In this document: in pieces, positions 9,214-52,351 of the stretch | How positions within the stretch are numbered: the first letter of the stretch is position 1 | How the letters are laid out: the number at the start of each line of letters is the position of its first letter | Source of the DNA: Candidatus Portnoybacteria bacterium | Lineage (GTDB): Bacteria; Patescibacteriota; Minisyncoccia; Portnoybacterales; GWB1-42-6 | Assembly: GCA_028688325.1 (NCBI GenBank) | Contig: JAQTYI010000001.1 | Span: 246,994-300,619 of the forward strand | Length of the DNA stretch: 53,626 nucleotides | Direction: 5' to 3' | Made by a program: the position numbers and the translations under genes | The notes under the pieces: generated by a model | What the model saw: the letters and a program-made list of their open reading frames with translations, nothing else | The model's database searches: none | Told to the model about the DNA's origin: nothing

Positions 9214-9385
9214 CGAAAACAAAAGTATTCTCATCTTAACTAAAAAATCACTTTTTTTCAATCCCGCCGGAAATCATCTACGGCCTGCGCCGAACGATAG
9301 GGAAGCGCCCAACGATCTTTAATTGGGTCTAAACCAAAACTGTGAATTGTTGCCCCTCTTATATATATGGTATAATTCCCATAAG

Positions 9386-10330: not shown

Positions 10331-10424
10331 TAAGTTCTAATAACGCGAACTTAAATCCTAATAGCGCGAATAATCCGATTGGCATTATTCGCTAATAATT
10401 AGCGATATTCGCGAACGCTGCACC

Positions 10425-10790
10425 ATGAAAACAATTTTACTCATTGAAGACGAGCCGACCCTTCAAAAGGCCTTGAGCACGGCCCTTTCCCAGGAAGGAT
10501 ATGATGTGAAAAACGCCCTGGATGGAGAGATTGGCTTGCGCCTGGCGCGCGAGACGAAACCGAACATCATTTTACTGGATCTCATCCTGCCCAAAATGGA
10601 CGGCTTTGAGGTCTTGGAAGAATTGAAAAAAGACGATTCGGTCAAGGATATTCCGGTAATCGTTTTAACGAATTTGGAAAGCACCCAGGACATCGAAAGG
10701 GCGCTGGCTTTGGGCGCGACCAATTATCTGGTAAAAGCGAATTATGACTTAAAGGACATCGTGGAAAAAGTCAGAGACAATATCAAATAG
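10425..10790 (+). CDS. Single-domain response regulator (CheY-like receiver only)
   Basis: 121 aa with DE at 8-9, the phospho-acceptor context LLDLILPKMDG and a conserved K near the end. No output domain. Confidence 0.9.
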   Translation: MKTILLIEDEPTLQKALSTALSQEGYDVKNALDGEIGLRLARETKPNIILLDLILPKMDGFEVLEELKKDDSVKDIPVIVLTNLESTQDIERALALGATNYLVKANYDLKDIVEKVRDNIK

Positions 10791-10884
10791 TAACGCCTGT
10801 AACGCGAATCGGGCGGCCAATAATGCGGGTATGAATATTTATCGGCATTGTTCGCCGGCGGTTGGCGTTATCCGCGAATGCTGC

Positions 10885-12645: not shown

Positions 12646-12732
12646 CCAGCCAGCTTATCGGTTTGTCAGTCGGTTAGTTTGTCAGTTAAAATTTAAACTG
12701 AAAAACTGAAAAACTGAAAAACTGAATTTATA

Positions 12733-13980: not shown

Positions 13981-14074
13981 GAGCCTTCTCTGAATTTTCA
14001 ATCCAAGCGGCAACGAAAAGAAAACCTTGCCTTGCGCCATTTTTCCCCAAACAAAAATGTAATTAGAAGTTGAT

Positions 14075-14920
14075 ATGAAAAATCTCGGCTTTACATTGAT
14101 AGAACTGGTGGTCGTGATAGCAATTGCGGTGTTGCTGTTGGGCATAGTCCTGCCCAATTTTAATTTTTTCCAGCGGCAAAGCGCGCTGGAAAGCGCGGCC
14201 CAAGAGGCAATCGGTGTTTTGCGCCTGGCGCAAAACAAAACCCTGTCCTCCGAAGGCGCCAGCTCTTTCGGAGTTTATTTTGAAAGCAATAAATTCACCC
14301 TTTTCAAAGGAACCACTTTCTATCCGTCCTCTCCCGACAACATCGTCTACAACATCAACTCCTCCCTGAAAATTTCCGATGTTAATTTAGGCGGAGGCAA
14401 CTTTTTGGTCTTCAGCCGCTTAAGCGGCGAGACGGCCGATTACGGCTCAATTAAAATCGAAGAGGCAAACAACAGCGCCAGAAATAAAATAATTTTCGTC
14501 GACTCCTCGGGCAATGTTTCGCTGGGGTCTTCTCCGCCCAGCGACCTGAGCCGCAAAAGCGATTCCCGCCATACCGAGTTTTCTTTCAGTCAAAACACCG
14601 CCAACGCGACCACCTTGAAATTATACTGGCCGGGCAACGATGTCACCAAGAACATTGATTATCAGTCCTACTTAAACAGCGACAAAACCGCTTTTTCATG
14701 GGCGGAGACAGTGAGCATAGGCGGCTCTGACCAAGACCTGGAGATTCACACCCACAGTTTAACCTCGTCCAATACGGTTTTTTGCGTGCTTCGCGACCAC
14801 CAAGACAAATACCCGGGGCTGAACATTTATTTGGACAATCAAAATTTGCTGAATTATTCCTATACCGGCACCACCACCAAAGGAACTTCCGTTTGGGCGG
14901 AAAACCCGACCAATCTGTGA
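14075..14920 (+). CDS. Prepilin-type N-terminal cleavage/methylation domain protein (GspH/FimT-like minor pilin)
   Basis: Class III signal MKNLG|FTLIELVVVIAIAVLLL with Glu at +5. Confidence 0.8.
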   Translation: MKNLGFTLIELVVVIAIAVLLLGIVLPNFNFFQRQSALESAAQEAIGVLRLAQNKTLSSEGASSFGVYFESNKFTLFKGTTFYPSSPDNIVYNINSSLKISDVNLGGGNFLVFSRLSGETADYGSIKIEEANNSARNKIIFVDSSGNVSLGSSPPSDLSRKSDSRHTEFSFSQNTANATTLKLYWPGNDVTKNIDYQSYLNSDKTAFSWAETVSIGGSDQDLEIHTHSLTSSNTVFCVLRDHQDKYPGLNIYLDNQNLLNYSYTGTTTKGTSVWAENPTNL

Positions 14921-15006
14921 AACCCGATTGAAAAAAATAAACATAATACGAAAAACGCGCCATTAAAATTAGTGGGTTGTTCAAAGATTTTTAACCGGGC
15001 AAAACG

Positions 15007-15510
15007 ATGAAAAAATTCACCGAAATAAAAATCAAACCGCGCCCCGAACTGGGCATCGGCCTGATAGAAATCCTGGTGGTAGTTTCAATTATCGGCTTAT
15101 CGCTGGTTTCCTTGACGGGGCTTGGCAATTTCGCGCTAAAAATCCAAACTCGCTTAAAACAGAACGCCGTTGCGGCAAACCTGGCCAGCGAAGCCCTGGA
15201 AGCGGCCCGATCCATCAGAGACGGGGGCTGGTCGGATTTGGCCAATATGACCGTTGACGCCCCTTTTCATCCGGCAAAAAACCCTTCGCTCTATCAATGG
15301 ACCATGGCGAGCGGAGAAGAAACCATAGGCGGCTTTACGCGCCGCCTGACCATCAGCAATGTTTTTCGCGACAGCGGTTTTAATATCGTTGAAAGCGGCG
15401 GGACGCAAGACGCGGGCACAAAAAAAATAACCGCCGCCGTTTCCTGGAGCTATAACGGACAAAATTTGCAAATAATCCTTGTTGACTATTTAACCAACTG
15501 GAAACCATAA
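15007..15510 (+). CDS. Pseudopilin-like protein with a divergent class III signal
   Basis: MKKFTEIKIKPRPELG|IGLIEILVVVSIIGL (Gly -1, Glu +5). The stop overlaps the next start by 1 nt. Confidence 0.6.
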   Translation: MKKFTEIKIKPRPELGIGLIEILVVVSIIGLSLVSLTGLGNFALKIQTRLKQNAVAANLASEALEAARSIRDGGWSDLANMTVDAPFHPAKNPSLYQWTMASGEETIGGFTRRLTISNVFRDSGFNIVESGGTQDAGTKKITAAVSWSYNGQNLQIILVDYLTNWKP

Positions 15511-16061
15511 TGATAAATTTTCAATTTTTAAAAAACCGGGGAATAACCGCGGGATTTACATTGATCGAGATGTTGGTTTATATTGCGCTCGTGACCATCA
15601 TCGTTTCGGTCATTGTGGCCTTCAGTTTTTGGATGATCCAGATCAGCGCCAAAGCGAAAGTTAATTCCGAAGTGCTGGCCAATGCCAGGCGCGCCATGGA
15701 AATAATGACTTACGAGATCAGAAAGTCCAAAAGTGTTTACGCCCCGACATCCGTCTTTGATAAAAATCCCGGCCAACTGGGCCTGCAACAGACCGCCGCC
15801 GCCGGCTCCGAAGAGACGACAACCTTTGCGGATTTTTTCATTTGCAACCAGGCCTTGTGTCTGAAAAGAGAAAAAACCCCGCCCATCGCCTTGACCGGCA
15901 GCTCTGTCCGCGTTACCAATTTTTTATTCAACCGGCGGCTAAATTCGCTAAACGCCGAATCCATCCGGATAACGCTGAAAGTTGAATCCCTCGCCTCAAA
16001 CAAACCCGAATACACCAACTCAATAGAGCTGACGGGCGCGGCCAATTTGCGCTCCTACTAA
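15510..16061 (+). CDS. Prepilin-type N-terminal cleavage/methylation domain protein (PilW-like minor pilin)
   Basis: Class III signal ...GITAG|FTLIEMLVYIALVTIIV. Confidence 0.8.
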   Translation: MINFQFLKNRGITAGFTLIEMLVYIALVTIIVSVIVAFSFWMIQISAKAKVNSEVLANARRAMEIMTYEIRKSKSVYAPTSVFDKNPGQLGLQQTAAAGSEETTTFADFFICNQALCLKREKTPPIALTGSSVRVTNFLFNRRLNSLNAESIRITLKVESLASNKPEYTNSIELTGAANLRSY

Positions 16062-16062
16062 A

Positions 16063-17814
16063 ATGATCAAGTCACCAAACAAAAAAATTTGCGGCCAACG
16101 AGGATTTGCAGCGCTTTTTTCGGTTATGATAATAATGTCAATCGTTCTAATTATCGTCGCCGGGTTGGGGTTGGTCACAATAATAGAGCAAAAAATAATC
16201 GCCAACTCGGCCTATTCGGCCCAGGCCTACTATGCGGCTGAATCAGGGATAGAGGATTCTCTTTACCGACTCATAAAAAACAAAAGTTATTCGGCCAGCA
16301 CCACATTGCCGGTCGGCGCAGGCAGCGCGGCCATCGCCATTTCCGATGTCGGAACGCAAAAATATATTTTGTCCAAAGGACAAGAACGCGGACACTTTCG
16401 CAGTTTGCGCGCCAAACTAAACACCGGCGGCCAAAACATTTCCGCTTCTTTTTCTTACGGCGTCCAAGTGGGAAGGGGAGGGTTAAAAATGGATAACGGC
16501 AGCCAGGTGGAGGGCAATATCTTTTCCAACGGCCCAATTCTGGGGAGCGCTGGCGCAACCGTCACGGGAAATGCCTGGGTGGCCAACGATTCCTTGAGCG
16601 CAAACCAGCAAAGCATTGTAAATTCATCCGATTTTTCTTTCGGCCAAGCCAACCCGGTTATCGATGCGGCGCAAAGCTTCGTCCCTTCCGCCTCAAGCAA
16701 TCTGATCAAGATCAGTTTGCTGTTAAAAAAATTCGGTTCGCCCGGCAACAAAACGGTCCGCATCCTAACCGACAACGCCGGCCAGCCGTCAAAAACCCTG
16801 GTCAATTCCGGCGCATACGGAACGCTGCTTGCCAGCCAAGTTGGCAATTCTTCTTATGCTTGGGTTGACATAAAATTAAACAATCCGGCTTCTCTGCAAG
16901 CTGGCGTTAAGTATTGGATACTGATTGATTCTTCTTTAAACGAAGATGCTTATTTCATTTCGGCCCGAGATGCGAACGATTCTTACGCCGGCGGAACCGG
17001 CAAATACAGCCAAAATTGGAATACTTCCTCGCCCGCCTGGACCGATATCGGCGGAGATCTGGCCTTTAAGGCCTGGCTGGGCAGCGCCAATAATTTTTTG
17101 GACAGGGTTCTGGTCGGCGGCAATGCGCACGCCAACACGATTTCCGACTCAAGCATCACCGGCGACGCCTATTTTCAGACACTAACGAATTCCACCGTCG
17201 GCGGAACCAAGTATCCTGGCAGCTCCGATCCGACGATCCAAGATCTCCCTTTGACCCAAGCCATCATTGACGGCTGGAAAACAGAAGCGGCCAACGGAGG
17301 CGTCATAACCGGGGACTATATCGTTGACGCAGGAGCCGTTAAAATATTGGGGCCGAAAAAAATAGAAGGAAATCTCACTATTTCAAACCGGGGCGACTTG
17401 ACGGTCAGCGGGACAATTTTCGTAACCGGGAACATCAATATTTTCAACAATGCTAAGGTGCGACTTTCGTCCGAGTTTAACGGCAACAGCGGCGCCGTCA
17501 TCACCGACGGACTGATTTCGGTTACCAATAGCTGTTCCTTTTTCGGCGCCTCCGCCGGCAGCTATGTTCTGCTGCTTTCAACAAAATCCGGCCAAGCCAT
17601 CAACTTAGCCAACAATTCCGACACCGCGATCTTTTATGCGGCCAACGGCTCCGTTGATGTCAGCAACAATACCGTATTGAAAGAGTTGATCGGCCAACAG
17701 ATCCATTTAAACAACGGTTCCAGAATAGTTTACGAGGCCGCGCTGGCGGCGGTGAAATTTTCCAGCAGCGTCAGCGGCTCGTGGAAAGTGACGGCCTGGG
17801 AAGAAGTGCCGTAG
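16063..17814 (+). CDS. Large PilX-N-like pilus-associated protein (candidate tip or adhesin subunit)
   Basis: 583 aa. N-terminal QRG|FAALFSVMIIMSIVLII hydrophobic segment without Glu5, followed by a Gly/Asn/Ser-rich, beta-helix-like remainder. Confidence 0.5.
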   Translation: MIKSPNKKICGQRGFAALFSVMIIMSIVLIIVAGLGLVTIIEQKIIANSAYSAQAYYAAESGIEDSLYRLIKNKSYSASTTLPVGAGSAAIAISDVGTQKYILSKGQERGHFRSLRAKLNTGGQNISASFSYGVQVGRGGLKMDNGSQVEGNIFSNGPILGSAGATVTGNAWVANDSLSANQQSIVNSSDFSFGQANPVIDAAQSFVPSASSNLIKISLLLKKFGSPGNKTVRILTDNAGQPSKTLVNSGAYGTLLASQVGNSSYAWVDIKLNNPASLQAGVKYWILIDSSLNEDAYFISARDANDSYAGGTGKYSQNWNTSSPAWTDIGGDLAFKAWLGSANNFLDRVLVGGNAHANTISDSSITGDAYFQTLTNSTVGGTKYPGSSDPTIQDLPLTQAIIDGWKTEAANGGVITGDYIVDAGAVKILGPKKIEGNLTISNRGDLTVSGTIFVTGNINIFNNAKVRLSSEFNGNSGAVITDGLISVTNSCSFFGASAGSYVLLLSTKSGQAINLANNSDTAIFYAANGSVDVSNNTVLKELIGQQIHLNNGSRIVYEAALAAVKFSSSVSGSWKVTAWEEVP

Positions 17815-42001: not shown

Positions 42002-44548
42002 ATGTCTTGTCATAATAGAAAATTCCTTCTTTCCGCCGTTCTGATAATTTTTATTGTCGGAGGATTTTTTGTTTGGCAATCCAATGTCGCCAAAGCTACA
42101 GATGTCGTACCAGCGCCGGCCGAAAATTTGAGTCCTGCGCAAGAGCTGCAAGAGGCCGACTATAAATCAAAGGCCTCTGCCCAAAATAATAATACAATCA
42201 CCGTCAACAATGCCAATAAAAACAATAATCCCGCCGATTGGGACCTGTATATACCGGTAGTTTTTCATATTGTCGGCGGATTGCTTTTCATGATCTTAAA
42301 ATTTTTAAACGGCATGGTCTGGCTTGGCGCCAATTTAGCCGATAAAATATTAGGCATTACTTCTTTTACCAGCGCTACTGTGGTTACTATCGGCTGGGGA
42401 ATAACGCGGGATCTGGCCAATATGTTTTTCGCCTTGATATTGCTCGTTATGTCTATCTCCACGATTTTGCAAATTGAAGGTTTTACCTACAAACAAATCC
42501 TTAAGCGCCTGATAATCGCCGCCCTGCTCATCAATTTCAGTTTGATGTTTGCCGGCATCATTATTGATTTTGCCCAGGTGATGACCAGTTTTTTTCTGAC
42601 CGCCGGCGCCGGCGAAGCGGGAATTTCGGCCAATTTAACCAACGGTTTAAAAATTGTCCAGGTTTTTAATTTCAGCGATGTTGACCGGTCAATTTTCCAG
42701 AAAGTGTCCGGTGCAATTTGGGGCCCAAGTTTGAAAATGATTATTGAACAAATCATGGCTGTAATTCTTTTCACCGCCGCAGCTTTTTCTTTTTTCGCTA
42801 TGAGTTTTTTTCTGATAGCCAGGATTGTCTGGATTTGGCTGCTTTTAATTGGCGCCCCCTTGGCCTGGATAGCGTTCATAGTGCCGAACGCTCCCGGAGA
42901 GCTGGGCGGTCTCTGGAACAGATGGTGGAAGGAATTCTTAAATTGGGTGTTTTTTGCGCCGATTTATTCTTTTTTCCTTTATCTGGCTTTAACCATCGCC
43001 AACATCCAAAATGGCCTTGGCCTGAATAATGCCTCAAATGAACTTGGTGCTTGGGGAAAGATGGGGACAGCTAATACTTTGCCGTTGCAATCTAAGTTTT
43101 TTGAAGCCCCGGAAACCATCCTAAAATATATAGTCATAATTATGATTCTGCTTGGCGGACTGACAGCAGCCAGAAAAATGGGCATAACCGGCGCGAACAC
43201 GGCCATGGGTTTGGTGGATAAAGCCGGCAACTGGATGAAAAATAAAGCTTGGGATTATTCCAAGCGGCCGGGGCAATGGGCCTACGATAGCTTAGCCAAC
43301 AAAGCCGCGCAGGGAACCGGCAAGATGTTTAGCGCCATCGGCTTTAAGAAATTCGGCAACCGCCTGACAGCCCAAGGCGTGCAGATGGAGTTGGAGCCGG
43401 CCGAACGGGAACGCCAAAAGGACTACGCCAAACGGCTTGGTTTTATGTCCGATAAAGACCTGCTGTATGAAACGAACAACGCTTACGGCATCAAGAAATT
43501 ACTGGCTGTGCGCCAAGCCAAAGAAAGAGGACTGCTGGAAAAAGGGCTCCCTACGGCGTTTGACGACACGCCAGAAGGCAAAAACAATTACAGCCAGGAA
43601 GCCAAGAACTTCAAAGAAGATTTATATAGCGATGAAGAGAAAAAGGATCCCGACCGCAACTCCAAATACAACACCGCCAAAAACGGCCACGCCAAGTACA
43701 TTGAAGACAAAAACAAGTATGACGAAAGTGAAGAAAACCAAGAAAAAACTAAAGAGTCAAAAGAAAGAGTTAACCAGGCGCTGTCAGTTCTTAATTCTTA
43801 CGGCCTCAAAGACGATAAAGGAAAGACCAAGGAAGGCCGAGATCTGGAGGATGTGCGCTTTGACGCCATAGCTGACGACACGGAAAGAGAGAAAGTTATC
43901 CGCCGGTCCAAAGAAAACGGCAACATAGAAAAAATAAAGCCGATTGTTTTTAACGACCCGAAAGCGGTGGCGTCATTTGTCAAAGAACTGTCGCCGCCCG
44001 AGCAAAACGAGGTCTACAAAAAATTAGGCAAGCAAACCAAAAAAGCCCTCGAGGAAGGATTGCGCAAATCTTTTGCCGAACTGCAGGGATTGACCGGCGG
44101 CCAACTGGCCGAAGAGTTGAAAAAACGCAATGCTTTTGCCGATATTACAGGCAAAGTGCACACAGCTTTTGCCAATAAAAACGGAATGCTGGACAATGAA
44201 GGAAAGAGGCAATTGGCAAAGTATGTTAGCACGATGACCGCGGCCAAATTGGCGGAGTTGAGGCACCCGGGCAGCGAACACGACATCGGCTTTGTGGCCC
44301 GCTACGCTTCCAGTGATTTAATTAACAGCGTGGGCAGAGAAAAAAGCATCAACACGACGCAAAAAGCAGCTTTCTATAACGGCGCGCAGGGCACCGTAAA
44401 GAGCGCCGGAGGCGGAAACATAAATATCGGTAAAAATGAAAATCCCGGCGCCTTAAATGCCTTTGAAGCGCCCGGCTGGAAAACATTTTCCGAACCAAAA
44501 AACAAGGCCGATGATAAATTCACCCAAAATGACATCGCCACAGCTTAA
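42002..44548 (+). CDS. Polytopic membrane protein, VirB6/TrbL-like, with a long Lys/Glu-rich C-terminal domain
   Basis: 848 aa, signal-like N-terminus, at least 6 TM helices between ~aa 80 and 400, then a charged hydrophilic tail. It sits beside PrgI/VirB4-like genes. Confidence 0.5.
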   Translation: MSCHNRKFLLSAVLIIFIVGGFFVWQSNVAKATDVVPAPAENLSPAQELQEADYKSKASAQNNNTITVNNANKNNNPADWDLYIPVVFHIVGGLLFMILKFLNGMVWLGANLADKILGITSFTSATVVTIGWGITRDLANMFFALILLVMSISTILQIEGFTYKQILKRLIIAALLINFSLMFAGIIIDFAQVMTSFFLTAGAGEAGISANLTNGLKIVQVFNFSDVDRSIFQKVSGAIWGPSLKMIIEQIMAVILFTAAAFSFFAMSFFLIARIVWIWLLLIGAPLAWIAFIVPNAPGELGGLWNRWWKEFLNWVFFAPIYSFFLYLALTIANIQNGLGLNNASNELGAWGKMGTANTLPLQSKFFEAPETILKYIVIIMILLGGLTAARKMGITGANTAMGLVDKAGNWMKNKAWDYSKRPGQWAYDSLANKAAQGTGKMFSAIGFKKFGNRLTAQGVQMELEPAERERQKDYAKRLGFMSDKDLLYETNNAYGIKKLLAVRQAKERGLLEKGLPTAFDDTPEGKNNYSQEAKNFKEDLYSDEEKKDPDRNSKYNTAKNGHAKYIEDKNKYDESEENQEKTKESKERVNQALSVLNSYGLKDDKGKTKEGRDLEDVRFDAIADDTEREKVIRRSKENGNIEKIKPIVFNDPKAVASFVKELSPPEQNEVYKKLGKQTKKALEEGLRKSFAELQGLTGGQLAEELKKRNAFADITGKVHTAFANKNGMLDNEGKRQLAKYVSTMTAAKLAELRHPGSEHDIGFVARYASSDLINSVGREKSINTTQKAAFYNGAQGTVKSAGGGNINIGKNENPGALNAFEAPGWKTFSEPKNKADDKFTQNDIATA

Positions 44549-44556
44549 TCTTTTTT

Positions 44557-45576
44557 ATGGCTAACTTAACCGCCCAAAAAATGCCGACCAGCCAACAAAG
44601 TTATCTTGCGCGCCTTGATACATTATTTTCGCAGCTGCCCGATCATGTTTACGACTGGCTGTTTTCCAGCCAAACCGGTCAAAGCGTAAAAACTATGGCC
44701 AAAAGATTCGGCTTAACCGAACAGCAAACAAGCCAGCTCTCCCGAGTTATCGGTCTAGCTGTTCTTAAAGATTTTCCCTTGCCTCAAATAATTCCAGAGA
44801 TAAGAGAATCGTTGAATATCAATGATTCTTTGGCCAAAGAAATCGCTTTGGCCGTCGCGCAAACGCAATTTTTATCTTTGCGCGACCACTTGATAGATGT
44901 TGAAAATTTTATCAGGCAGACAGGCGGGTCTTTGCCCGTCGCTCTGCCGCCAACACTAAAATCTTCTTTTGTCCCCGGCTCCATGGCTTCCAATGCGCCT
45001 GCTTCTCAAACGCCGCAAGTTAATATTATTCAAAAAACGCTCCGCCATCTGGCCAAAGATAACAAAGACGCGCTCAACCAGAATCTGACTACCGCGCCGA
45101 TAAAGATCGCCGACTTTGACCAGCCCGTGCGGCCCACCATAAAAAATTGGCTGGTGGATTATGTCAAACAAAAAGGAGCGGGACATCATGAAGCCATGGA
45201 GCGCGGCGACTATTTGTTCAATAGCATCAACAGCCGGCCGTTGCCGGAAAAAGAAAAATCACTGCTGGCGGAAATTTTACGGGCCTACGATGACGATACG
45301 CCTTTACCGATTAATGAGGCCGACCAAATGATTTTGCTGGATAAATTAACTCTTTCCGCCGCAAGCGCACCGGCATTGCCAAAACCAGAACCCGCGGCAA
45401 GACCGATGCCGGTTCCGCCAAAGATTCCCGTCCCGCCGCCTCCGCCCGCGCCAAACACAAATTACCGCGAACCGATATCCGAAATGGACATAACGGGACC
45501 GCTGACCAAGCCGGCACCTCCGCGGCCGGCGCCGCGCCTGAGCGGAAACATTATCGATTTAAAAGATTTGCAATAA
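44557..45576 (+). CDS. Hypothetical soluble protein with a Pro-rich C-terminus
   Basis: 339-aa ORF tightly packed in the operon, with a PKPEPAARPMPVPPKIPVPPPPPAP tract. Confidence 0.5.
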   Translation: MANLTAQKMPTSQQSYLARLDTLFSQLPDHVYDWLFSSQTGQSVKTMAKRFGLTEQQTSQLSRVIGLAVLKDFPLPQIIPEIRESLNINDSLAKEIALAVAQTQFLSLRDHLIDVENFIRQTGGSLPVALPPTLKSSFVPGSMASNAPASQTPQVNIIQKTLRHLAKDNKDALNQNLTTAPIKIADFDQPVRPTIKNWLVDYVKQKGAGHHEAMERGDYLFNSINSRPLPEKEKSLLAEILRAYDDDTPLPINEADQMILLDKLTLSAASAPALPKPEPAARPMPVPPKIPVPPPPPAPNTNYREPISEMDITGPLTKPAPPRPAPRLSGNIIDLKDLQ

Positions 45577-45652: not shown

Positions 45653-45940
45653 ATGAATTTCAATGTTCCGCAATTCATAGACATTGAAGATACCATCTTA
45701 GGGCCTCTGACGCTCAAGCAATTCTTATTGCTGATTGCCGCAGGAGCGTTCATAGCCCTTCTTTGGTGGGCCTTCAAGCTTTGGTTCGTGATTCTGATCG
45801 GCGGGCCTATTATCGCGGCCATTTTGGCCTCCATTTTCATTAAAATTAACGACCGGCCGTTGCCCAAAATTTTTTCCGCCTGGTTCAACTTTCAAACAAA
45901 ACCGAGGTTTTACATTTGGAAAAAAGATACAAAAAACTAA
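45653..45940 (+). CDS. PrgI family (VirB3-like) small membrane protein
   Basis: FNVPQFIDIEDTILGPLTLKQFLLLIAAG followed by two TM helices. It lies immediately upstream of VirB4. Confidence 0.75.
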   Translation: MNFNVPQFIDIEDTILGPLTLKQFLLLIAAGAFIALLWWAFKLWFVILIGGPIIAAILASIFIKINDRPLPKIFSAWFNFQTKPRFYIWKKDTKN

Positions 45941-45964: not shown

Positions 45965-46597
45965 ATGCCCGCTTCTATACAACAAAAAATCATCATTGAA
46001 GACATTAAAGATGGCGTTATTATTTTGCAAGGCGGCGATTTGCGCGGTATTTTGATTGCGTCTTCCGTCAACTTTTCCTTGAAATCGGCGGATGAACAGG
46101 ATTCCATCATATTCAAATACCAAGGTTTTTTGAACTCGCTTGATTTTCCCGTCCAGATTTTAACGGTTTCGCGCCACCTGAATATTGATGGGTATTTGGC
46201 TTCCATTGAACAAAAAAGGAAAGAGCAAACCAGCGAGTTGTTGCGCATCCAGATCGCCGAATATCTTGATTTCATAAAAAACTTGGTGCAGGTGGGCAAT
46301 ATTATGGACCAGGCCTTTTATGTCGTCGTGCCCCTGTCAAGGGTTGAAAAAAAAGAAGCGGGTGTGCTGGAAAAATTAGGACTGACCCAAAAGCCGGCCG
46401 CCAGCGAAGAACTTAAAAGTTTTGACGAATTGAAATCCCAGCTCTGGCAGCGGCTGGAATACCTGTCCGGCGGGCTGGCTGGAATGGGCATAAAATCAAC
46501 GCCGCTTAATACCGAAGAAATCACCCAGCTTTTTTACCGGCTGTATAATATGGGGGTCAAAGTCGCGCCGACCGCGCCGGCCAAAGAGGAAATTTAA
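45965..46597 (+). CDS. VirB4/TrsE-like N-terminal segment (first part of a VirB4 split by an in-frame TAA)
   Basis: IIIEDIKDGVIILQGGDLRGILIASSVNFSLKSADEQDSIIFKYQGFLNSLDFPVQIL resembles the extreme N-terminus of Gram-positive-type VirB4 proteins. It is in the same reading frame as 46607-48424, separated by TAA + 3 codons. Confidence 0.55.
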   Translation: MPASIQQKIIIEDIKDGVIILQGGDLRGILIASSVNFSLKSADEQDSIIFKYQGFLNSLDFPVQILTVSRHLNIDGYLASIEQKRKEQTSELLRIQIAEYLDFIKNLVQVGNIMDQAFYVVVPLSRVEKKEAGVLEKLGLTQKPAASEELKSFDELKSQLWQRLEYLSGGLAGMGIKSTPLNTEEITQLFYRLYNMGVKVAPTAPAKEEI

Positions 46598-46606
46598 AAA
46601 AACCGT

Positions 46607-48424
46607 ATGGATTTCAGCTTTTTAATGAAAAAAAAGACAGCACCAACCGGCCAGCCGGCGCCTTCCGGCCAGCTTTTTGACGGCGCGTCCCAAACCGCCG
46701 GCCCGTCAATAAAAGATTTGATTTCGCCGGCTGGCATCAAAATTGATTCCAGCTCAATGCAAATTAACAATAAATTCGCCCGCTCCCTTTTTGTTTTCAC
46801 TTATCCCAGATATCTGGCCACCAACTGGTTTTCGCCGGTAATGTCGATGGACAAAGAATTCAATGTATCTATGTTCGTCTATCCGGTCGAAACGCCCTGG
46901 ATAATGAACCAGTTGAAAAAAAAGGTGGCGCAGGTGCAGTCGCAGATAAATGAACGCGAGACAAAAGGCCAAGTGCGCGACCCGATGCTGGAAACGGCGC
47001 TCAATGATATAGAAAATCTTCGGGACAGCTTGCTTCAAGGTAATGAAAAGTTTTTCAAATTCGGCCTCTACTTGACGATCTTCGGCGACAGCGCCAAAGA
47101 ACTGGACGATACGGAAAACGAGATTCGCTCCCTGCTTGAAGGCCGTATGGTCTACATAAAACCGGCTTCATTCCAGCAGGAACAGGGATTTAATTCAACG
47201 CTGCCGCTGGTCAAGGATGAATTGCAGATAAACACTTCGATGAACACGGGGCCGGTTTCCAGCGCCTTTCCTTTCGTGTCGGTCAACCTTTCCGACAACA
47301 AGGGAGTGCTCTATGGCATCAACCGCCACAACAACTCCCTGATAATCTTCGACCGCTTCTCGCTGGAAAACGCCAATGCCGTGGTTTTTGCTAAATCCGG
47401 CTCGGGTAAAAGCTATACCGTAAAACTTGAGGTCTTGCGCTCCTTAATGATGGGGACCGATGTTATCATCATTGACCCGGAAAACGAATATCAATATTTA
47501 ACGGAAACCGTTGGCGGCTCATTTATAAAAATTTCCCTGAATTCACCGCACCGGTTAAACCCCTTTGACCTGCCGGTGCCGCCGAAGGGGGAGCAGCCAG
47601 GAGATATTTTGCGCTCAACCATAATCAATTTGGTGGGGCTGCTGCGCATTATGCTGGGCGGAATTTCGCCGGAAGAAGATGCTATTTTAGACCGCGCCAT
47701 CGGAGAGACCTATGCTTCGCGCGATATCACCCCCCAGTCGGATTTTTCCAAGATAACCCCGCCGTTGCTTTCAGACCTCCATTCTATTTTAAAAAATATG
47801 CAGGGCGGATCCTCCCTGGCTTCGCGCCTGGAGCGCTTCACCACCGGCTCTTATTCTGGCCTATTCAACCAGCAAACCAATGTTGAGTTAAAAAATAAAT
47901 TAGTGACTTTTTCCATCCGCGACCTGGAAGAAGAATTGCGGCCGATTGCCATGTATATCGTTCTGCACTATATCTGGAATATTATCCGCTCCGAGCTCAA
48001 ACGGCGCATCTTGGTGGTAGACGAGGCCTGGGTTATGATGCGCCACGATGACGCCGCCTCTTTCCTTTTTGGCATCGCCAAGCGCTGCCGTAAATATTAT
48101 CTTGGTCTCACCACCATCACCCAGGATGTGGCCGACTTTATGAATTCTCCCTACGGCAAGCCCATTGTTTCCAATTCTTCCATGCAAATCCTGCTGCGCC
48201 AGTCGCCGGCTACGATAGATGTCATCCAAAAAACCTTCAACTTGACCGACCAGGAAAAGTATCTCCTGCTTGAAGGCAGCGTGGGGGAAGGAATATTTTT
48301 TGCGGGCTTGCAGCATGCGGCGATAAAAGTTATCGCTTCCTACACCGAAGACCAGATAATCACCTCCGACCCGCGGCAATTATTGGAGATACAAAAAGCC
48401 AAAGAAGAATTAGCGGAACAATAA
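46607..48424 (+). CDS. VirB4/TrsE-like T4SS ATPase (middle and C-terminal part)
   Basis: Walker A FAKSGSGKSY and Walker B ILVVDEAW. The Walker A sits at only ~aa 265, so about 200 N-terminal residues appear to be supplied by the preceding ORF. Confidence 0.8.
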   Translation: MDFSFLMKKKTAPTGQPAPSGQLFDGASQTAGPSIKDLISPAGIKIDSSSMQINNKFARSLFVFTYPRYLATNWFSPVMSMDKEFNVSMFVYPVETPWIMNQLKKKVAQVQSQINERETKGQVRDPMLETALNDIENLRDSLLQGNEKFFKFGLYLTIFGDSAKELDDTENEIRSLLEGRMVYIKPASFQQEQGFNSTLPLVKDELQINTSMNTGPVSSAFPFVSVNLSDNKGVLYGINRHNNSLIIFDRFSLENANAVVFAKSGSGKSYTVKLEVLRSLMMGTDVIIIDPENEYQYLTETVGGSFIKISLNSPHRLNPFDLPVPPKGEQPGDILRSTIINLVGLLRIMLGGISPEEDAILDRAIGETYASRDITPQSDFSKITPPLLSDLHSILKNMQGGSSLASRLERFTTGSYSGLFNQQTNVELKNKLVTFSIRDLEEELRPIAMYIVLHYIWNIIRSELKRRILVVDEAWVMMRHDDAASFLFGIAKRCRKYYLGLTTITQDVADFMNSPYGKPIVSNSSMQILLRQSPATIDVIQKTFNLTDQEKYLLLEGSVGEGIFFAGLQHAAIKVIASYTEDQIITSDPRQLLEIQKAKEELAEQ

Positions 48425-48428
48425 AAAA

Positions 48429-48809
48429 ATGCCTGAAGACACTAAATCACCGAATACAAAACAAGGACAAAAAACGAAACCGGCCGTTGCGCCGGACGAA
48501 GAGATTTTTTTTCCTTGGGGAATGCTTTTTGTCGCCATTCTTTTTGACTTTATCGGGCTGATCCCTCTGTTAAATTTTCTCTCGGAAATACTGGCCGGTT
48601 TGATTTTCGGCCTGTGGCAAAAATTTTATAACCCTAAACTTGATCCGGTATTGACATTCGTCGTCGCCAAAATAATTGATGCCCTATCTCTGGGGTTTCT
48701 TCCCAGCAACACCGGCATCGTGGTTTATGCTTATATCAAGAAAAAATCCCTGCAAGCGGCGTCAATTCCCTTAGGCCAAAAAGCAATGGGAAAAGTTTCT
48801 TCATCTTAA
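48429..48809 (+). CDS. Small polytopic membrane protein of the T4SS-like locus
   Basis: 126 aa with 3 hydrophobic helices. The start is 5 nt after the VirB4 stop. Confidence 0.5.
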   Translation: MPEDTKSPNTKQGQKTKPAVAPDEEIFFPWGMLFVAILFDFIGLIPLLNFLSEILAGLIFGLWQKFYNPKLDPVLTFVVAKIIDALSLGFLPSNTGIVVYAYIKKKSLQAASIPLGQKAMGKVSSS

Positions 48810-48820
48810 TCTCAACAAAT

Positions 48821-49561
48821 ATGAAAAAAACGGGGTCGCTCCATAAAATATTATTTCTGGCCGGCGTAATTGTTCTGATGGGTTTTGCCGCGCTGCCAGC
48901 CAAGCCGACGCTGTCGGCCAACAGCGATTTTATTTTGACTTGGTCTACCAGCTCATATGTTCCCCAAACATACGAAGGCAAGGCCCTGCCCGTGCGAGGC
49001 AGCGCCATAACTGTCTTCGCTCTGCCTGTCAAAAAATTAGCCCAAAATCCCGACTATCTGTATTACCGCTGGCTGCTGGACGACGATGTGGTCGGCTGGG
49101 CGGGCGGCATGGGAAAGTCCTCCTTTAAATTCTCGGCCGAAAAATGGGCCGGCGATTTTCATAAAGTAGAATCCCAAATTCTCGATTCCCAGCAACGAGC
49201 AGTATTATCGCAAGATTTCATTTATATAAAAATCGTTAACCCGGAGATTTTGATATCCGGCCCAGACAACAGCAATTATTCTCTTATAGAAAAAATAAGC
49301 GCCGGCACGGGAAAAAACATAAAACTGACCGCCCAGCCGTTTTTCTTCAATATCGGCAAGCTTTCCGACCTGAACTTTAGTTGGCAACTCAACGATCAGG
49401 AGCTTCCCAGCCAAGGAGACAATGATCAAAATATCCTCTCGTTGACGACGCCCAAAGGAATTCTTAGCGAAGCGATTTATAAAAACATCCGCCTGACGGT
49501 CAGCAGTAAAAATAACGATATGGAATGGGGCAGCATTAATTTATCCCTTGAAATACGCTGA
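48821..49561 (+). CDS. Secreted hypothetical protein
   Basis: Signal peptide (ILFLAGVIVLMGFAALPA), beta-rich composition, no motif recognised. Confidence 0.5.
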   Translation: MKKTGSLHKILFLAGVIVLMGFAALPAKPTLSANSDFILTWSTSSYVPQTYEGKALPVRGSAITVFALPVKKLAQNPDYLYYRWLLDDDVVGWAGGMGKSSFKFSAEKWAGDFHKVESQILDSQQRAVLSQDFIYIKIVNPEILISGPDNSNYSLIEKISAGTGKNIKLTAQPFFFNIGKLSDLNFSWQLNDQELPSQGDNDQNILSLTTPKGILSEAIYKNIRLTVSSKNNDMEWGSINLSLEIR

Positions 49562-49566
49562 TAATT

Positions 49567-50472
49567 TTGAAAAAAACACATGCCATTATTTTTCTTGCGG
49601 TATTTCTTTGCTTGTTGATCGGCGGCAAAGTTTTTGCCGCCGACTACAAAATAGAAGTTCCGCTACCCGGGCTCCCGTCCGGCTCTTCCATTTCCGACCC
49701 GGGCCAATATGTTAAATATCTTTTCATCTTCGGTTTGGCTTTAGCGGGATTTCTGGCGGTGGCAGCCATCGCCTACGGCGGGATAAAATATATGCTGTCG
49801 GGAACCACTATCACCAATGTGCAAGACGCCAAGGACTTGATCTACGGGGCATTGATAGGCATTGGCTTCCTGTTGGGCTCATACCTTTTGCTGTATACAA
49901 TAGACCCGACTTTGACGAATCTGTCTCTTGTGTCATTGAATAAAATAAATATCCCGAAAATCATTGAGGACTATGACCTGCCGGCGAATATAACTGCCGG
50001 CAAAACCGCAGACGAACTGAATGCCATAATAAGTAGCGGAAAAATAAACGGGCAGGCCACGGCCTCTTGCTCCATCGGAACTTGCGGCAGCCAAACGGTG
50101 CAAGGACATACGCTTTCCTCCGGAGCGGCGGCAAAATACTCCGATCTACGGCAAAACATTCAACAGGCATGCGCCGAGCAGGGATTATCATGCGATACCT
50201 CAATATCTTCTTCCGTTGACGGCCAGCACGCTTCAAGCTGCCACAAGCAAGGCACCGCCACCAGCGGCACCTGCGGCGACTTTGTCATCACCGCGCCGGA
50301 ATGCGGCGGCAGCATCAAGTCCTGCTCCCCGGCGGTTAAAGAAAAATATATCCAAGTCGCTTCCGGTGTTTTAAGCGGCTCCGGAGCCAAAGATATCCGC
50401 ACCTGCCTGAATGAATACAAGGTTAAGGGCTCAAGCTATTCGACCGGCGGACACTTCCATTGTAATTTTTAA
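49567..50472 (+). CDS. TrbC/VirB2-like T4SS pilin-family protein with Cys-rich C-terminal domain (paralog 1)
   Basis: Signal peptide, then a two-TM hairpin module (YVKYLFIFGLALAGFLAVAAIAYGG...GALIGIGFLLGSYLLLYTIDP), then a 170-aa tail with multiple Cys. Confidence 0.6.
   Translation: MKKTHAIIFLAVFLCLLIGGKVFAADYKIEVPLPGLPSGSSISDPGQYVKYLFIFGLALAGFLAVAAIAYGGIKYMLSGTTITNVQDAKDLIYGALIGIGFLLGSYLLLYTIDPTLTNLSLVSLNKINIPKIIEDYDLPANITAGKTADELNAIISSGKINGQATASCSIGTCGSQTVQGHTLSSGAAAKYSDLRQNIQQACAEQGLSCDTSISSSVDGQHASSCHKQGTATSGTCGDFVITAPECGGSIKSCSPAVKEKYIQVASGVLSGSGAKDIRTCLNEYKVKGSSYSTGGHFHCNF
49663..49925 (+). repeat. 263-bp near-identical direct repeat, copy 1 (N-terminal module of pilin paralog 1)
   Basis: Matches 50581-50843 with a single mismatch seen (gttaaAtatc vs gttaaGtatc). 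Confidence 0.9.
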
Positions 50473-50478
50473 TCTCTT

Positions 50479-51153
50479 ATGGATATTCTGAATAAAAAAT
50501 TATTTATCTTCTTTGGCCTCATATTATGCGCCTGGCTTTTTGCCTTGCCGGCGCAAGCGGCCTATGAGGTTCAAATCGCCCTACCCGGGCTCCCGTCCGG
50601 CTCTTCCATTTCCGACCCGGGCCAATATGTTAAGTATCTTTTCATCTTCGGTTTGGCTTTAGCGGGATTTCTGGCGGTGGCAGCCATCGCCTACGGCGGG
50701 ATAAAATATATGCTGTCGGGAACCACTATCACCAATGTGCAAGACGCCAAGGACTTGATCTACGGGGCATTGATAGGCATTGGCTTCCTGTTGGGCTCAT
50801 ACCTTTTGCTGTATACAATAGACCCGACTTTGACGAATCTGTCGCCCAGGGTGCCGCCAGTCATCAATATTTCCGCGCCAGCCGCGCCGACGCCAGGAAC
50901 CCAAAACTGCAATCCGAGTTGCCAAACCGGATATAGATGCGATCCTTACAGAAACTATACTTGTGTTAAAATAGAAGTGACCACCCCTGGAATGACAGGG
51001 AATCAAACTCCCGGCCAATGCCAAGAATTCAAAACAATACCAAGCGGATGCGCGCAAGGCCATAAGGTGTGGAATCCTAATACCTGTATGTGCGAGGGAT
51101 GCGGTGACAGCTATAAATGGGATTACTCGACAAAAAGTTGCGTGCTCAAATAA
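50479..51153 (+). CDS. TrbC/VirB2-like T4SS pilin-family protein with a different Cys-rich C-terminal domain (paralog 2)
   Basis: The two-TM module is identical to that of 49567-50472. The unrelated ~100-aa tail carries multiple Cys residues (NCNPSCQTGYRCD...CMCEGCGDSYKWDYSTKSC). Confidence 0.6.
   Translation: MDILNKKLFIFFGLILCAWLFALPAQAAYEVQIALPGLPSGSSISDPGQYVKYLFIFGLALAGFLAVAAIAYGGIKYMLSGTTITNVQDAKDLIYGALIGIGFLLGSYLLLYTIDPTLTNLSPRVPPVINISAPAAPTPGTQNCNPSCQTGYRCDPYRNYTCVKIEVTTPGMTGNQTPGQCQEFKTIPSGCAQGHKVWNPNTCMCEGCGDSYKWDYSTKSCVLK
50581..50843 (+). repeat. 263-bp near-identical direct repeat, copy 2 (N-terminal module of pilin paralog 2)
   Basis: See 49663-49925. Confidence 0.9.
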
Positions 51154-51169
51154 TAAATAATATCCGCGT

Positions 51170-52351
51170 ATGAACACAAAAAAAATTCTCATTATTGCTT
51201 CTGTTTTACTGGCTCTATCGCTGGCTACACTGTTGGTTTATAATTTCTTTTTTAAGGCGCCAACCGGAACTGCTCCCCGGGAAACCGGCGTCGGAGCGCT
51301 GCCGAGTGGAAGCGCCGGGAAGGGAAGCGGCGGATCTTCTTTGCCCGGAGACACCAATGGAACCCAAGGCCAGGCGGCCTTGAAAATAAGGCCTGTCAGC
51401 AAAGAGCCGGTTCTGTCGCCGACCATCGGCGCCGACGGCCAGACGGTAAAATATTACACCCTCTCCAACGGCAATATTTTTGAGTCGGATTTTTTGGGCG
51501 GCAACCTTAAAAAAATATCCTCGGTCACCCTAAACGGCCTGCTTAAAGCGCTCTGGTCGCCGGATAAAAACGGGGTTATCGGCGTTTTTTCCGATAACAA
51601 TAAAATCAAAAAATATTTTTACAATTATATAAACAACCAGTCGTCGCTCCTCAATGAAAAAATCGGCTATGCGGCTTTCTCGCCGGACAGCAAGAAAATC
51701 TCTTACCAGTTCATCGACAATCAAAGCGGCCAAAATAACATCAGCACGGCAAATCCGGATGGCTCAAATTATAAGACCATCTTCAAAACCCGACTGGATA
51801 ATCTCATCGTTGAGTGGCCTGTCAAAGAAAAAATTTCCTTGCGCCAACCGCCAAGCGGCCTGGCCCAGGGCATACTTTATGCCATAAATTCCGAGACAGG
51901 GGATTTCACCAAGGTGCTGAGCGATATTTTCGGGCTCAGCGCGAAGTGGTCGCCCAAGGCCGACAAGATCCTTTATTCCTCAACGGACGACAGAGGAAAA
52001 AATCCCAAATTAACCCTATCCGACAGCACCGGCGCCAACTTTAAAAACCTAAAGCTGGCCGGCCTGGCTGATAAATGCGTCTGGGGCAAAGACGACCGGA
52101 CAATTTTTTGCGCCCTGCCCCAGGAGATATCAGAGAACGCCGTCTGGCCCGATGACTATTATAAAGGACTCGTCATTTTAGAGGATGATTTTTACAAGAT
52201 TAACCTGGAGACGGACACCAAAACAAAAATCCTGGGCTCTTCCGACCAAGGAAGCTATGACGCCCAGGAGCTGTTCCTCTCACCCAAAGAAGATTACCTG
52301 TTTTTCGTCAATAAGCGCGATGGCCTGCTTTATAGCATAAAAACACAATAA
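51170..52351 (+). CDS. Membrane-anchored TolB-like beta-propeller (PD40 repeat) protein
   Basis: N-terminal TM helix. Repeats such as FSPDSKKISYQF...NPDGSNYKTIF and WSPKADKILYSS. Confidence 0.6.
   Translation: MNTKKILIIASVLLALSLATLLVYNFFFKAPTGTAPRETGVGALPSGSAGKGSGGSSLPGDTNGTQGQAALKIRPVSKEPVLSPTIGADGQTVKYYTLSNGNIFESDFLGGNLKKISSVTLNGLLKALWSPDKNGVIGVFSDNNKIKKYFYNYINNQSSLLNEKIGYAAFSPDSKKISYQFIDNQSGQNNISTANPDGSNYKTIFKTRLDNLIVEWPVKEKISLRQPPSGLAQGILYAINSETGDFTKVLSDIFGLSAKWSPKADKILYSSTDDRGKNPKLTLSDSTGANFKNLKLAGLADKCVWGKDDRTIFCALPQEISENAVWPDDYYKGLVILEDDFYKINLETDTKTKILGSSDQGSYDAQELFLSPKEDYLFFVNKRDGLLYSIKTQ

What the first reader, a model, noticed from the sequence alone, without database searches (positions are those of the whole stretch)
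45965..48424. VirB4-like ATPase split by a single in-frame TAA within a TTTAAAAAAAC run
ORFs 45965-46597 (210 aa) and 46607-48424 (605 aa) are in the same reading frame. They are separated only by TAA (46595-46597) and three sense codons (AAA AAC CGT) before the ATG. The upstream ORF looks like the extreme N-terminus of Gram-positive-type VirB4/TrsE proteins (IEDIKDGVIIL..G.LRGIL..SSVNF.LKS..EQ). In the downstream ORF the Walker A (GSGKS) sits at only ~aa 265. Joined, the two give ~818 aa with Walker A near aa 480, which is the usual VirB4 geometry. This could be a recent nonsense mutation (a decaying locus), a genuine two-polypeptide VirB4, stop-codon readthrough, or a sequencing or assembly error next to an A7 homopolymer.
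Basis: partly seen in the sequence, partly recalled or inferred. Interest (0 to 1): 0.7.

Follow-up and report, generated by a model that had tools for sequence, protein, structure and literature searches.

The report
Two-gene VirB4 ATPase (TrsD plus TrsE)

Summary

It is not a broken gene.
- ORF1 has more than 1,400 homologues. The best 120, at 52-100% identity, are all 196-230 aa stand-alone proteins of the Pfam TraC-like family.
- In 79 of 79 analysable loci from different Patescibacteria species, the ORF1-like gene ends in a stop and the ATPase gene follows.
- The relative frames are 20/27/32, the stops are of all three kinds, and the gaps range from -35 to 448 nt.
- The closest relative (86% identity) has a 4-nt gap and a different frame.
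- Both genes are under strong purifying selection (dN/dS 0.03-0.10).

ORF1 matches the TrsD/TraD profile end to end. ORF2 matches pSK41 TraE/TrsE from residue 1, and pSK41 has the same VirB3-like, trsD, ATPase gene order.

A rare fused relative (797 aa) aligns colinearly with ORF1+ORF2, so the two do make up one VirB4.

Quinonero-Coronel et al. 2025 already report TrsD as the most abundant T4SS component of Patescibacteria, usually next to virB4.

Verdict: already known. The shared frame is coincidence.

The parts
45653..45940 (+). PrgI-family (VirB3-like) small membrane protein, 95 aa, with two hydrophobic segments. It sits directly upstream of the TrsD-like gene.
   Evidence: Pfam PF12666 PrgI, E 5.4e-8, 33.7 bits against a cut-off of 27. 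TM-like segments at residues 25-43 and 45-63. A PrgI-family gene lies just upstream of the TrsD-like gene in relatives, directly in most; in L083 a bAvd-like gene sits between them.
45965..46597 (+). TrsD-like / Pfam 'TraC-like' protein, 210 aa: the separately encoded N-terminal module of VirB4.
   Evidence: NCBIfam TrsD/TraD NF041427: residues 4-195 match profile positions 14-200 of 201 (E 1.6e-7, below the curated cut-off). It also matches positions 11-129 of the CD1110 VirB4 profile. There are 1,412 homologues, and the best 120 are all 196-230 aa with PF26593. Pairwise match to pSK41 TrsD residues 33-216, E 3e-5. The top 14 Foldseek PDB hits of the AF2 model are all TrwK/VirB4 chains. dN/dS 0.08-0.10.
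46595..46597 (+). TAA, the genuine stop codon of the TrsD-like gene.
   Evidence: Relatives stop in the variable tail 8-20 residues after the conserved YN motif. 79 of 79 related loci have a stop there: TAA 55, TAG 13, TGA 11.
46598..46606 (+). 9-nt intergenic spacer (AAAAACCGT).
   Evidence: The median gap in 78 related loci is 11 nt, range -35 to 448. The closest relatives have gaps of 4, 95 and 30 nt.
46607..48424 (+). VirB4 / TrsE(TraE)-like ATPase, 605 aa: the rest of the N-terminal domain plus the C-terminal RecA-like ATPase domain.
   Evidence: NCBIfam CD1110 VirB4-like ATPase, 380.9 bits against a cut-off of 325, residues 30-567 matching profile positions 182-728 of 752. Pfam P-loop_TraG, AAA_10, DUF87 and CagE_TrbE_VirB. 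PDB 4ag5 VirB4 C-terminal domain, E 9e-43, and TrwK residues 445-735. pSK41 TraE aligned from residue 1, E 4e-41. dN/dS 0.03-0.04.
47390..47413 (+). Walker A motif AKSGSGKS (ORF2 residues 262-269).
   Evidence: GSGKS starts at residue 265.
48008..48025 (+). Walker B-like motif ILVVDE (ORF2 residues 468-473).
   Evidence: DEAW starts at residue 472.
42002..44548 (+). Context: an 848-aa polytopic membrane protein with 8 hydrophobic segments in its first 390 residues. It is a candidate VirB6-like channel subunit (inferred only).
   Evidence: No Pfam or NCBIfam hit. Hydropathy scan. A large gene in the same position (849, 724 and 613 aa) is present in L081, L083 and L085.
49567..51153 (+). Context: two tandem paralogues (301 and 224 aa). 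They share a 123-residue N-terminus with a signal-like segment and two hydrophobic helices. They are candidate VirB2-like pilins (inferred only).
   Evidence: 79% identity over 123 residues. Hydropathy scan. VirB2-like pilins are reported near virB4 in Patescibacteria (PMC12102498 abstract).

Best explanation
[quoted passage not shown] Gene 1 (45965-46597) encodes a soluble 210-aa TrsD-like / 'TraC-like' protein that corresponds to roughly the first 180-200 residues of a full-length VirB4. Gene 2 (46607-48424) encodes the remaining about 600 residues: the rest of the N-terminal domain and the Walker A/B ATPase domain. Each gene is translated from its own ATG, and the TAA is the real end of gene 1. 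Inferred, not shown: the 9-nt gap favours translational coupling and similar amounts of both chains. Also inferred: the two chains associate non-covalently to rebuild a VirB4-like hexameric motor that docks on the PrgI/VirB3-like protein encoded just upstream and on the polytopic membrane protein of the locus. The split lies at the same point as between TrsD and TrsE/TraE of the staphylococcal plasmids pSK41 and pGO1, so it is old and inherited rather than a lesion of this genome. The shared reading frame is a one-in-three coincidence.
For: - Conservation of a stand-alone ORF1: 1,412 homologues, with the best 120 at 52-100% identity all 196-230 aa. Of the best 150 representatives of 50%-identity clusters, only 2 are about 800-900 aa.
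- Gene pairs in other species: in 79 of 79 analysable loci from distinct species a stop follows ORF1 and the ATPase gene comes next. Relative frames are 20/27/32, stops are TAA 55, TAG 13, TGA 11, and the median gap is 11 nt.
- Closest relatives: at 86% identity the gap is 4 nt in frame +1. At 82% the stop is TGA, the gap 95 nt and the frame +2. At 74% the gap is 30 nt in frame, but with a second in-frame TAA.
- Variable C-terminal tails after the conserved YNMG motif, and a recurrent N-terminal M-x-(L/F)-F-x-KKK motif on the ATPase proteins, also seen in pSK41 TraE. Both point to real termini.
- Purifying selection on both genes: dN/dS 0.08-0.10 and 0.03-0.04.
- The two parts add up to one VirB4: profile positions 11-129 plus 182-728 of 752, a colinear 48% alignment to the fused 797-aa P0234, and Foldseek top hits for ORF1 that are all TrwK/VirB4.
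- Precedent: pSK41 has a TrsC-like gene, trsD (227 aa), a 14-nt gap, then a 672-aa ATPase, with pairwise homology to both window ORFs. Geobacillus pLW1071 and a Miltoncostaea plasmid show the same split.
- Literature: TrsD is remotely homologous to the VirB4 N-terminus, is the most abundant T4SS component in Patescibacteria (2,272 homologues, 1,664 next to virB4), and is listed as essential in Ca. S. epibionticum ML1 (PMC12102498).
Against: - No protein-level evidence here shows that the two chains associate, or in what ratio.
- The match to the curated TrsD model is far below its cut-off (31 against 200 bits), and the Foldseek E-values (2.8e-3 at best) are weak taken alone.
- No clear Shine-Dalgarno sequence precedes ORF2: a GAGG lies 17 nt upstream, but the other genes of this locus lack one too.
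- dS is at or above 1, so the dN/dS values are rough.
- The local Pfam copy did not reproduce the precomputed PF26593 hit.
Confidence: 0.93

Rival explanations
1. A recent nonsense mutation (or other decay) has interrupted a formerly single virB4 gene, making this a pseudogene in a degenerating locus.
For: In this window the two ORFs are in the same frame and only 12 bases apart. Rare fused relatives exist: P0234 at 797 aa and P0264 at 898 aa.
Against: - The stop is present in 79 of 79 related species, in all three relative frames, and in every one of the best 120 homologues.
- A relative at 86% identity has a different frame.
- Both ORFs are under strong purifying selection.
- The same split occurs in pSK41.
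Confidence: 0.01
2. A sequencing or assembly error next to the A7 homopolymer created a false stop.
For: A homopolymer run (46596-46602) directly follows the stop.
Against: - An indel in the A run would shift the frame rather than create an in-frame TAA.
- Independent assemblies of many relatives end the gene in the same short variable tail.
- The exact 210-aa product is recorded on two contigs (P0001).
Confidence: 0.01
3. Programmed stop-codon readthrough at UUU-UAA-AAA-AAC produces some fused 819-aa VirB4 in addition to the two separate chains.
For: The frame is shared, no further stop lies between TAA and the ATG, and the stop is followed by A. Fused proteins are functional in some relatives.
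Against: - The in-frame arrangement is not conserved. 59 of 79 relatives are out of frame, including the closest one.
- An in-frame relative has a second TAA in the spacer.
- UAA is generally the least leaky stop codon (established knowledge).
- No downstream structure or conserved motif was looked for or seen.
Confidence: 0.03
4. ORF1 is an unrelated accessory protein that merely sits next to a naturally short VirB4, so the two do not make up one VirB4.
For: No Pfam hit for ORF1 in the local library. No sequence match to any solved structure. [quoted passage not shown]
Against: - ORF1 and ORF2 hit consecutive, non-overlapping parts of two different full-length VirB4 profiles.
- There is a colinear alignment to a fused protein.
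- The structure model's top 14 PDB hits are all VirB4.
- ORF2 lacks about the first 180 positions of the VirB4 profiles.
Confidence: 0.02

Closest known systems
TrsD + TrsE (TraD + TraE) of the staphylococcal conjugative plasmids pSK41/pGO1 (MPF-FATA, pGO1 subclass)
   Same: - The gene order is the same: VirB3-like, then a roughly 210-230-aa TrsD, then a short gap (14 nt against 9 nt here), then a roughly 600-670-aa ATPase.
- ORF1 aligns over nearly the whole of TrsD.
- ORF2 aligns with TraE from residue 1, including the N-terminal FLKKK motif.
- The split is therefore at the same point.
   Different: - Identity is only 21-23%.
- The pSK41 system is plasmid-borne and conjugative, with a relaxase and a VirD4-like protein nearby.
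- This locus is chromosomal, among housekeeping genes, and none of the 20 window ORFs scanned, which include every gene of the T4SS cluster, matched a relaxase or VirD4 family; the other ORFs of the window were not scanned.
- The ORF1 score is below the curated TrsD cut-off.
The Patescibacteria T4SS described by Quinonero-Coronel et al. 2025 (PMC12102498) and Wang et al. 2023 (Ca. Southlakia epibionticum ML1)
   Same: This is the same system: TrsD homologues next to virB4, PrgI-type VirB3, VirB2-like pilin candidates and a chromosomal location. The relatives found here are Parcubacteria, Portnoybacteria, Moraniibacteriota and others.
   Different: Nothing substantive. The paper treats TrsD as a separate component and does not discuss junction frames. 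This window is one more member.
Full-length VirB4 (CD1110 family of Bacillota ICEs; TrwK of R388; TraC of F)
   Same: ORF1+ORF2 cover the same profile positions in the same order. The ATPase domain is homologous to 4ag5 and TrwK, and Walker A falls near residue 479 of the joined reading.
   Different: Here the protein is made as two polypeptides. The break lies in a variable linker of the N-terminal domain.
Rare fused VirB4 of some Patescibacteria (P0234, MAG GCA_964615945.1)
   Same: 48% identity and colinear over 823 columns, with a PrgI gene upstream.
   Different: It is a single 797-aa chain with a shorter linker.

Membership tests
TrsD/TraD family (NCBIfam NF041427; CONJScan TrsD) / Pfam PF26593 TraC-like | Sequence match to the family profile over its full length. 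| tested here: inconclusive
   NF041427 is matched over positions 14-200 of 201 with E 1.6e-7, but at 31.4 bits against a curated cut-off of 200. Precomputed Pfam PF26593 'TraC-like' is listed for ORF1 itself and for all 120 best homologues. The local Pfam scan did not reproduce this.
TrsD/TraD family | A stand-alone protein of about 200-230 aa encoded directly upstream of the VirB4-type ATPase gene and downstream of a VirB3-like gene. | tested here: met
   Window order: PrgI 45653-45940, ORF1, ORF2. The order is the same in pSK41 and in 79 of 79 related loci.
TrsD/TraD family | Remote homology to the N-terminal part of VirB4. | tested here: met
   Positions 11-129 of the CD1110 profile and 129-235 of VirB4_plasma. 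Colinear alignment with the fused P0234. Foldseek top hits are all TrwK/VirB4.
VirB4 family ATPase (NCBIfam NF045971 CD1110 family) | Score above the curated cut-off. | tested here: met
   ORF2 scores 380.9 bits against a cut-off of 325.
VirB4 family ATPase | Walker A and Walker B motifs in a C-terminal RecA-like domain. | tested here: met
   AKSGSGKS at residues 262-269 and ILVVDE at 468-473. 4ag5 match at E 9e-43.
VirB4 family ATPase | A single polypeptide covering the whole profile, N-terminal domain included. | tested here: not met
   ORF2 starts at profile position 182 of 752, 294 of 894, 227 of 800 and 237 of 792 in four models. The missing part is supplied by ORF1.
Pseudogene / recent gene disruption | An interruption absent from close relatives, with relaxed selection on the fragments. 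| tested here: not met
   The stop is present in all relatives. dN/dS is 0.03-0.10.
Programmed stop-codon readthrough | An in-frame downstream ORF and a stop context conserved among relatives. | tested here: not met
   Relative frames are 20/27/32 and all three stop codons are used. A second in-frame stop is present in L085.
Programmed stop-codon readthrough | A detectable fused product. | not testable with these tools
   This needs proteomics or a reporter assay.

The most novel reading that the evidence does not exclude
In this lineage the chance in-frame arrangement (UUU UAA AAA AAC CGU AUG, with no second stop) might allow a low level of UAA readthrough. The cell would then make a little fused 819-aa VirB4 besides the two separate chains. 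Fused forms do work in a few Patescibacteria.
Probability: 0.03. Interest if true: 0.35.

Novelty: already known. Interest (0 to 1): 0.1.

Why it matters
It matters mainly for annotation. A TrsD-like gene followed by a roughly 600-aa VirB4 gene should not be flagged as a pseudogene, a frameshift or an assembly error in Patescibacteria or in pGO1-type Gram-positive systems. The one point of wider interest is that the break sits at the same place in Staphylococcus plasmids and in Patescibacteria. This fits the published view that the Patescibacteria T4SS derives from the monoderm conjugation machinery. The function of the detached N-terminal module is still unassigned.

Tried and rejected
- **Local Pfam scan of ORF1:** no hit, although precomputed tables list PF26593 for it.
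- **Sequence search of ORF1 against the PDB:** only chance-level hits, EpiD at E 0.31. The link to VirB4 needed profiles, a fused relative and a structure model.
- **AF2 model of ORF1:** only moderate quality, pLDDT 70 and pTM 0.57. No Foldseek hit reached E <= 0.001, so the result is used as supporting evidence only.
- **Shine-Dalgarno signal before ORF2:** a GAGG lies 17 nt upstream, too far, and the other genes of the locus also lack an SD. Nothing follows from this.
- **FEMS 2025 T4SS review (PMC12857230):** does not mention TrsD or a split.
- **Nonsense mutation, sequencing error and readthrough:** each considered and rejected from the comparative data.
- **Not attempted:** a structure prediction of the ORF1-ORF2 complex, because the tool takes single chains only.
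Full report
**Observation**

The sequence is exactly as described.
- ORF1 runs 45965-46597 (210 aa) and ORF2 runs 46607-48424 (605 aa), both on the + strand.
- TAA lies at 46595-46597, followed by AAA AAC CGT and then ATG. The A7 run is 46596-46602.
- Both start coordinates are 2 mod 3, so the frame is shared.
- GSGKS starts at residue 265 of ORF2 and at residue 479 of the 819-codon joined reading.

**What the two ORFs are**

ORF2 is a VirB4-type ATPase that lacks the N-terminal end.
- It passes the curated cut-off of the CD1110 VirB4-like family: 380.9 bits against 325.
- Its residues 30-567 cover only positions 182-728 of that 752-position profile. It starts equally late in three other full-length VirB4/TraC models.
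- Pfam finds P-loop_TraG, AAA_10, DUF87 and the tail of CagE_TrbE_VirB.
- Residues 227-586 match the crystallised C-terminal domain of Thermoanaerobacter VirB4 (4ag5, E 9e-43). Residues 256-553 match TrwK residues 445-735.

ORF1 supplies the missing end.
- It matches positions 11-129 of the CD1110 profile and positions 129-235 of the mycoplasma VirB4 profile.
- It covers the TrsD/TraD family profile from position 14 to 200 of 201 (E 1.6e-7, well below that model's curated cut-off).
- An AlphaFold2 model built from 20 homologues has pLDDT 70. Its 14 best PDB matches are all R388 TrwK/VirB4 chains. The E-values are weak, 2.8e-3 at best.

A natural 797-aa protein from another Patescibacteria MAG (P0234) aligns colinearly with ORF1-X-KNR-ORF2 at 48% identity over 823 columns. 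It is a real gene, encoded next to a PrgI gene.

**Is the split a lesion?**

It is not.
- ORF1 has 1,412 homologues in the 5.8-billion-protein collection. The best 120 range from 100% down to 52% identity. All are 196-230 aa stand-alone proteins carrying Pfam PF26593 ('TraC-like'), and those that a source names are from Parcubacteria, Portnoybacteria or other Patescibacteria.
- Among the best 150 representatives of 50%-identity clusters, only two are about 800-900 aa.
- A scan of species-representative genomes gave 80 loci from different species. In all 79 that could be analysed, the ORF1-like gene (207-255 aa) ends in a stop codon and the ORF2-like gene follows.
- In those loci the relative reading frame is 0, +1 or +2 in 20, 27 and 32 cases. 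The stop is TAA in 55, TAG in 13 and TGA in 11. The gap has a median of 11 nt and ranges from -35 to 448.

The closest relatives settle the matter.

| Relative | ORF1 identity | Stop | Gap | Relative frame |
|---|---|---|---|---|
| L081 | 86% | TAA | 4 nt | +1 |
| L083 | 82% | TGA | 95 nt | +2 |
| L085/L086 | 74% | TAA | 30 nt | 0, with a second in-frame TAA |

- The C-terminal tails of the ORF1 proteins vary in length and sequence after a conserved YNMG motif.
- Many ATPase proteins begin with a similar M-x-(L/F)-F-x-KKK motif. Both observations fit real termini.
- dN/dS against three relatives is 0.08-0.10 for ORF1 and 0.03-0.04 for ORF2. These values are rough, because dS is at or above 1.
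- An indel in the A run could not create an in-frame TAA.

Nonsense mutation, decay, assembly error and conserved readthrough are therefore all excluded. The shared frame is the one-in-three coincidence.

**Precedent and literature**

pSK41 of Staphylococcus aureus has the same arrangement.
- Its genes run in this order: a TrsC-like gene, trsD (227 aa, annotated as a TrsD/TraD family conjugative transfer protein), a 14-nt gap, then a 672-aa DUF87 ATPase (TraE/TrsE).
- ORF1 aligns with TrsD residues 33-216 (E 3e-5).
- ORF2 aligns with the ATPase from residue 1 to residue 1, including MDFSFLMKKK against MIMAFLKKKK (E 4e-41). The break is at the same place.

The same split is seen in Geobacillus plasmid pLW1071 and in a Miltoncostaea plasmid: PrgI, then a 337-aa protein, then a DUF87 ATPase.

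Quinonero-Coronel et al. 2025 (PMC12102498) make the following points.
[quoted passage not shown] 2014.
- It was the most abundant T4SS component they found in Patescibacteria: 2,272 homologues, 1,664 of them associated with virB4.
- The TrsD homologue of Ca. Southlakia epibionticum ML1 is listed as essential, citing Wang et al. 2023.

The feature is therefore already described.

**How it most likely works**

Shown:
- There are two conserved genes, each with its own start and stop.
- Together they cover a VirB4.
- They sit in a conserved locus with a PrgI/VirB3-like gene upstream.

Inferred:
- The short spacer gives translational coupling.
- The 210-aa chain binds the N-terminal region of the 605-aa chain to rebuild the VirB4 N-terminal domain.
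- In the solved R388 machine that domain contacts VirB3 and the membrane complex (my knowledge of Mace et al. 2022, not tested here).
- The assembled hexamer powers a chromosomal T4SS.

The published work suggests this T4SS has been co-opted for a function other than conjugation, and in Saccharimonadia its genes are essential for epibiotic growth. None of the 20 window ORFs I scanned, which include every gene of the T4SS cluster, matched a relaxase or a VirD4 family; the other ORFs of the window were not scanned.

**Context of the window**

The T4SS-like cluster spans about 38.9-52.3 kb. Its gene order is conserved in L081, L083 and L085.

| Coordinates | Feature |
|---|---|
| 38915-39895 | TSP3-repeat protein |
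| 39920-41932 | Protein with one hydrophobic segment |
| 42002-44548 | 848-aa protein with eight hydrophobic segments |
| 44557-45576 | 339-aa soluble protein |
| 45653-45940 | PrgI-family protein |
| 45965-46597 | TrsD-like protein (ORF1) |
| 46607-48424 | VirB4 ATPase (ORF2) |
| 48429-52351 | Small membrane proteins, including two pilin-like paralogues |

Elsewhere the window carries housekeeping genes (IF-2, PNPase, UvrD, a ComM-like Mg-chelatase) and a type IV pilus cluster. The locus is therefore chromosomal.

**Verdict**

The feature is already known and of low interest.

Noticed in passing
window 49567-50472 and 50479-51153 (+): Two tandem paralogues (301 and 224 aa) share an N-terminal 123 residues at 79% identity, almost identical from residue 34 to 120. 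This part has a signal-like segment and two hydrophobic helices, and the C-terminal parts are unrelated. They look like VirB2-type pilin candidates with swapped tails. There is no Pfam hit.
   Followed up: partly
window 42002-44548 (+): An 848-aa protein with 8 hydrophobic segments in its first 390 residues and no family hit. A large gene (849, 724 and 613 aa) holds the same position in the relatives. It is a possible VirB6-like channel subunit.
   Followed up: partly
L081 7344-7655; L083 7596-7982: Close relatives carry an extra small gene with Pfam 23S_rRNA_IVP / bAvd hits (a four-helix-bundle protein of the kind that accompanies diversity-generating retroelements). It sits before PrgI in L081 and between PrgI and the TrsD-like gene in L083. 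The window has no such gene there.
   Followed up: no
L019, L021, L032, L041, L045, L053, L054, L057, L062, L063, L070, L071 (ATPase genes): In a subset of species the VirB4-part protein is 716-900 aa. It has an extra N-terminal region of about 150-250 residues, often starting MDRIVFRDNKGP, ahead of the part that matches ORF2. The nature of this region is unknown.
   Followed up: no
P0136, P0157, P0172, P0188 and others; L087 3542-4588; L088 3917-4930: Many TrsD-like proteins are 300-440 aa, carrying a C-terminal or N-terminal extension beyond the ~200-aa module. These include the versions on a Geobacillus conjugative plasmid (348 aa) and a Miltoncostaea plasmid (337 aa).
   Followed up: no
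plasmid hits H19-H22; L089 3866-5536: Weak ORF1 matches (22-26% identity) occur on haloarchaeal plasmids (Haloarcula, Salinigranum, Halobacterium, Salinibaculum). In Haloarcula pelagica (L089), the only one whose annotation was looked at, the hit lies in a 556-aa protein followed by a 761-aa protein.
   Followed up: no
window ~9300-17800 (+), e.g. 10831-12645 and 16063-17814: A type IV pilus gene cluster lies in the same window as the T4SS: a PilB-type T2SSE ATPase with an MshEN domain (E 2e-121) and a PilX_N protein.
   Followed up: partly
window 45965-46594 (protein level): The local Pfam library gives no hit for ORF1, yet the precomputed tables give PF26593 'TraC-like' for it and all its relatives. 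Some sources name homologues 'ribosomal protein S16' (P0035, P0037), which looks like a mis-annotation.
   Followed up: no
L004, L009, L016, L018, L019, L022 and others (record titles): Several MAG records carrying this typical Patescibacteria locus are titled 'uncultured Bdellovibrionales' or 'Micavibrio sp.'. The taxonomic labels are probably wrong.
   Followed up: no
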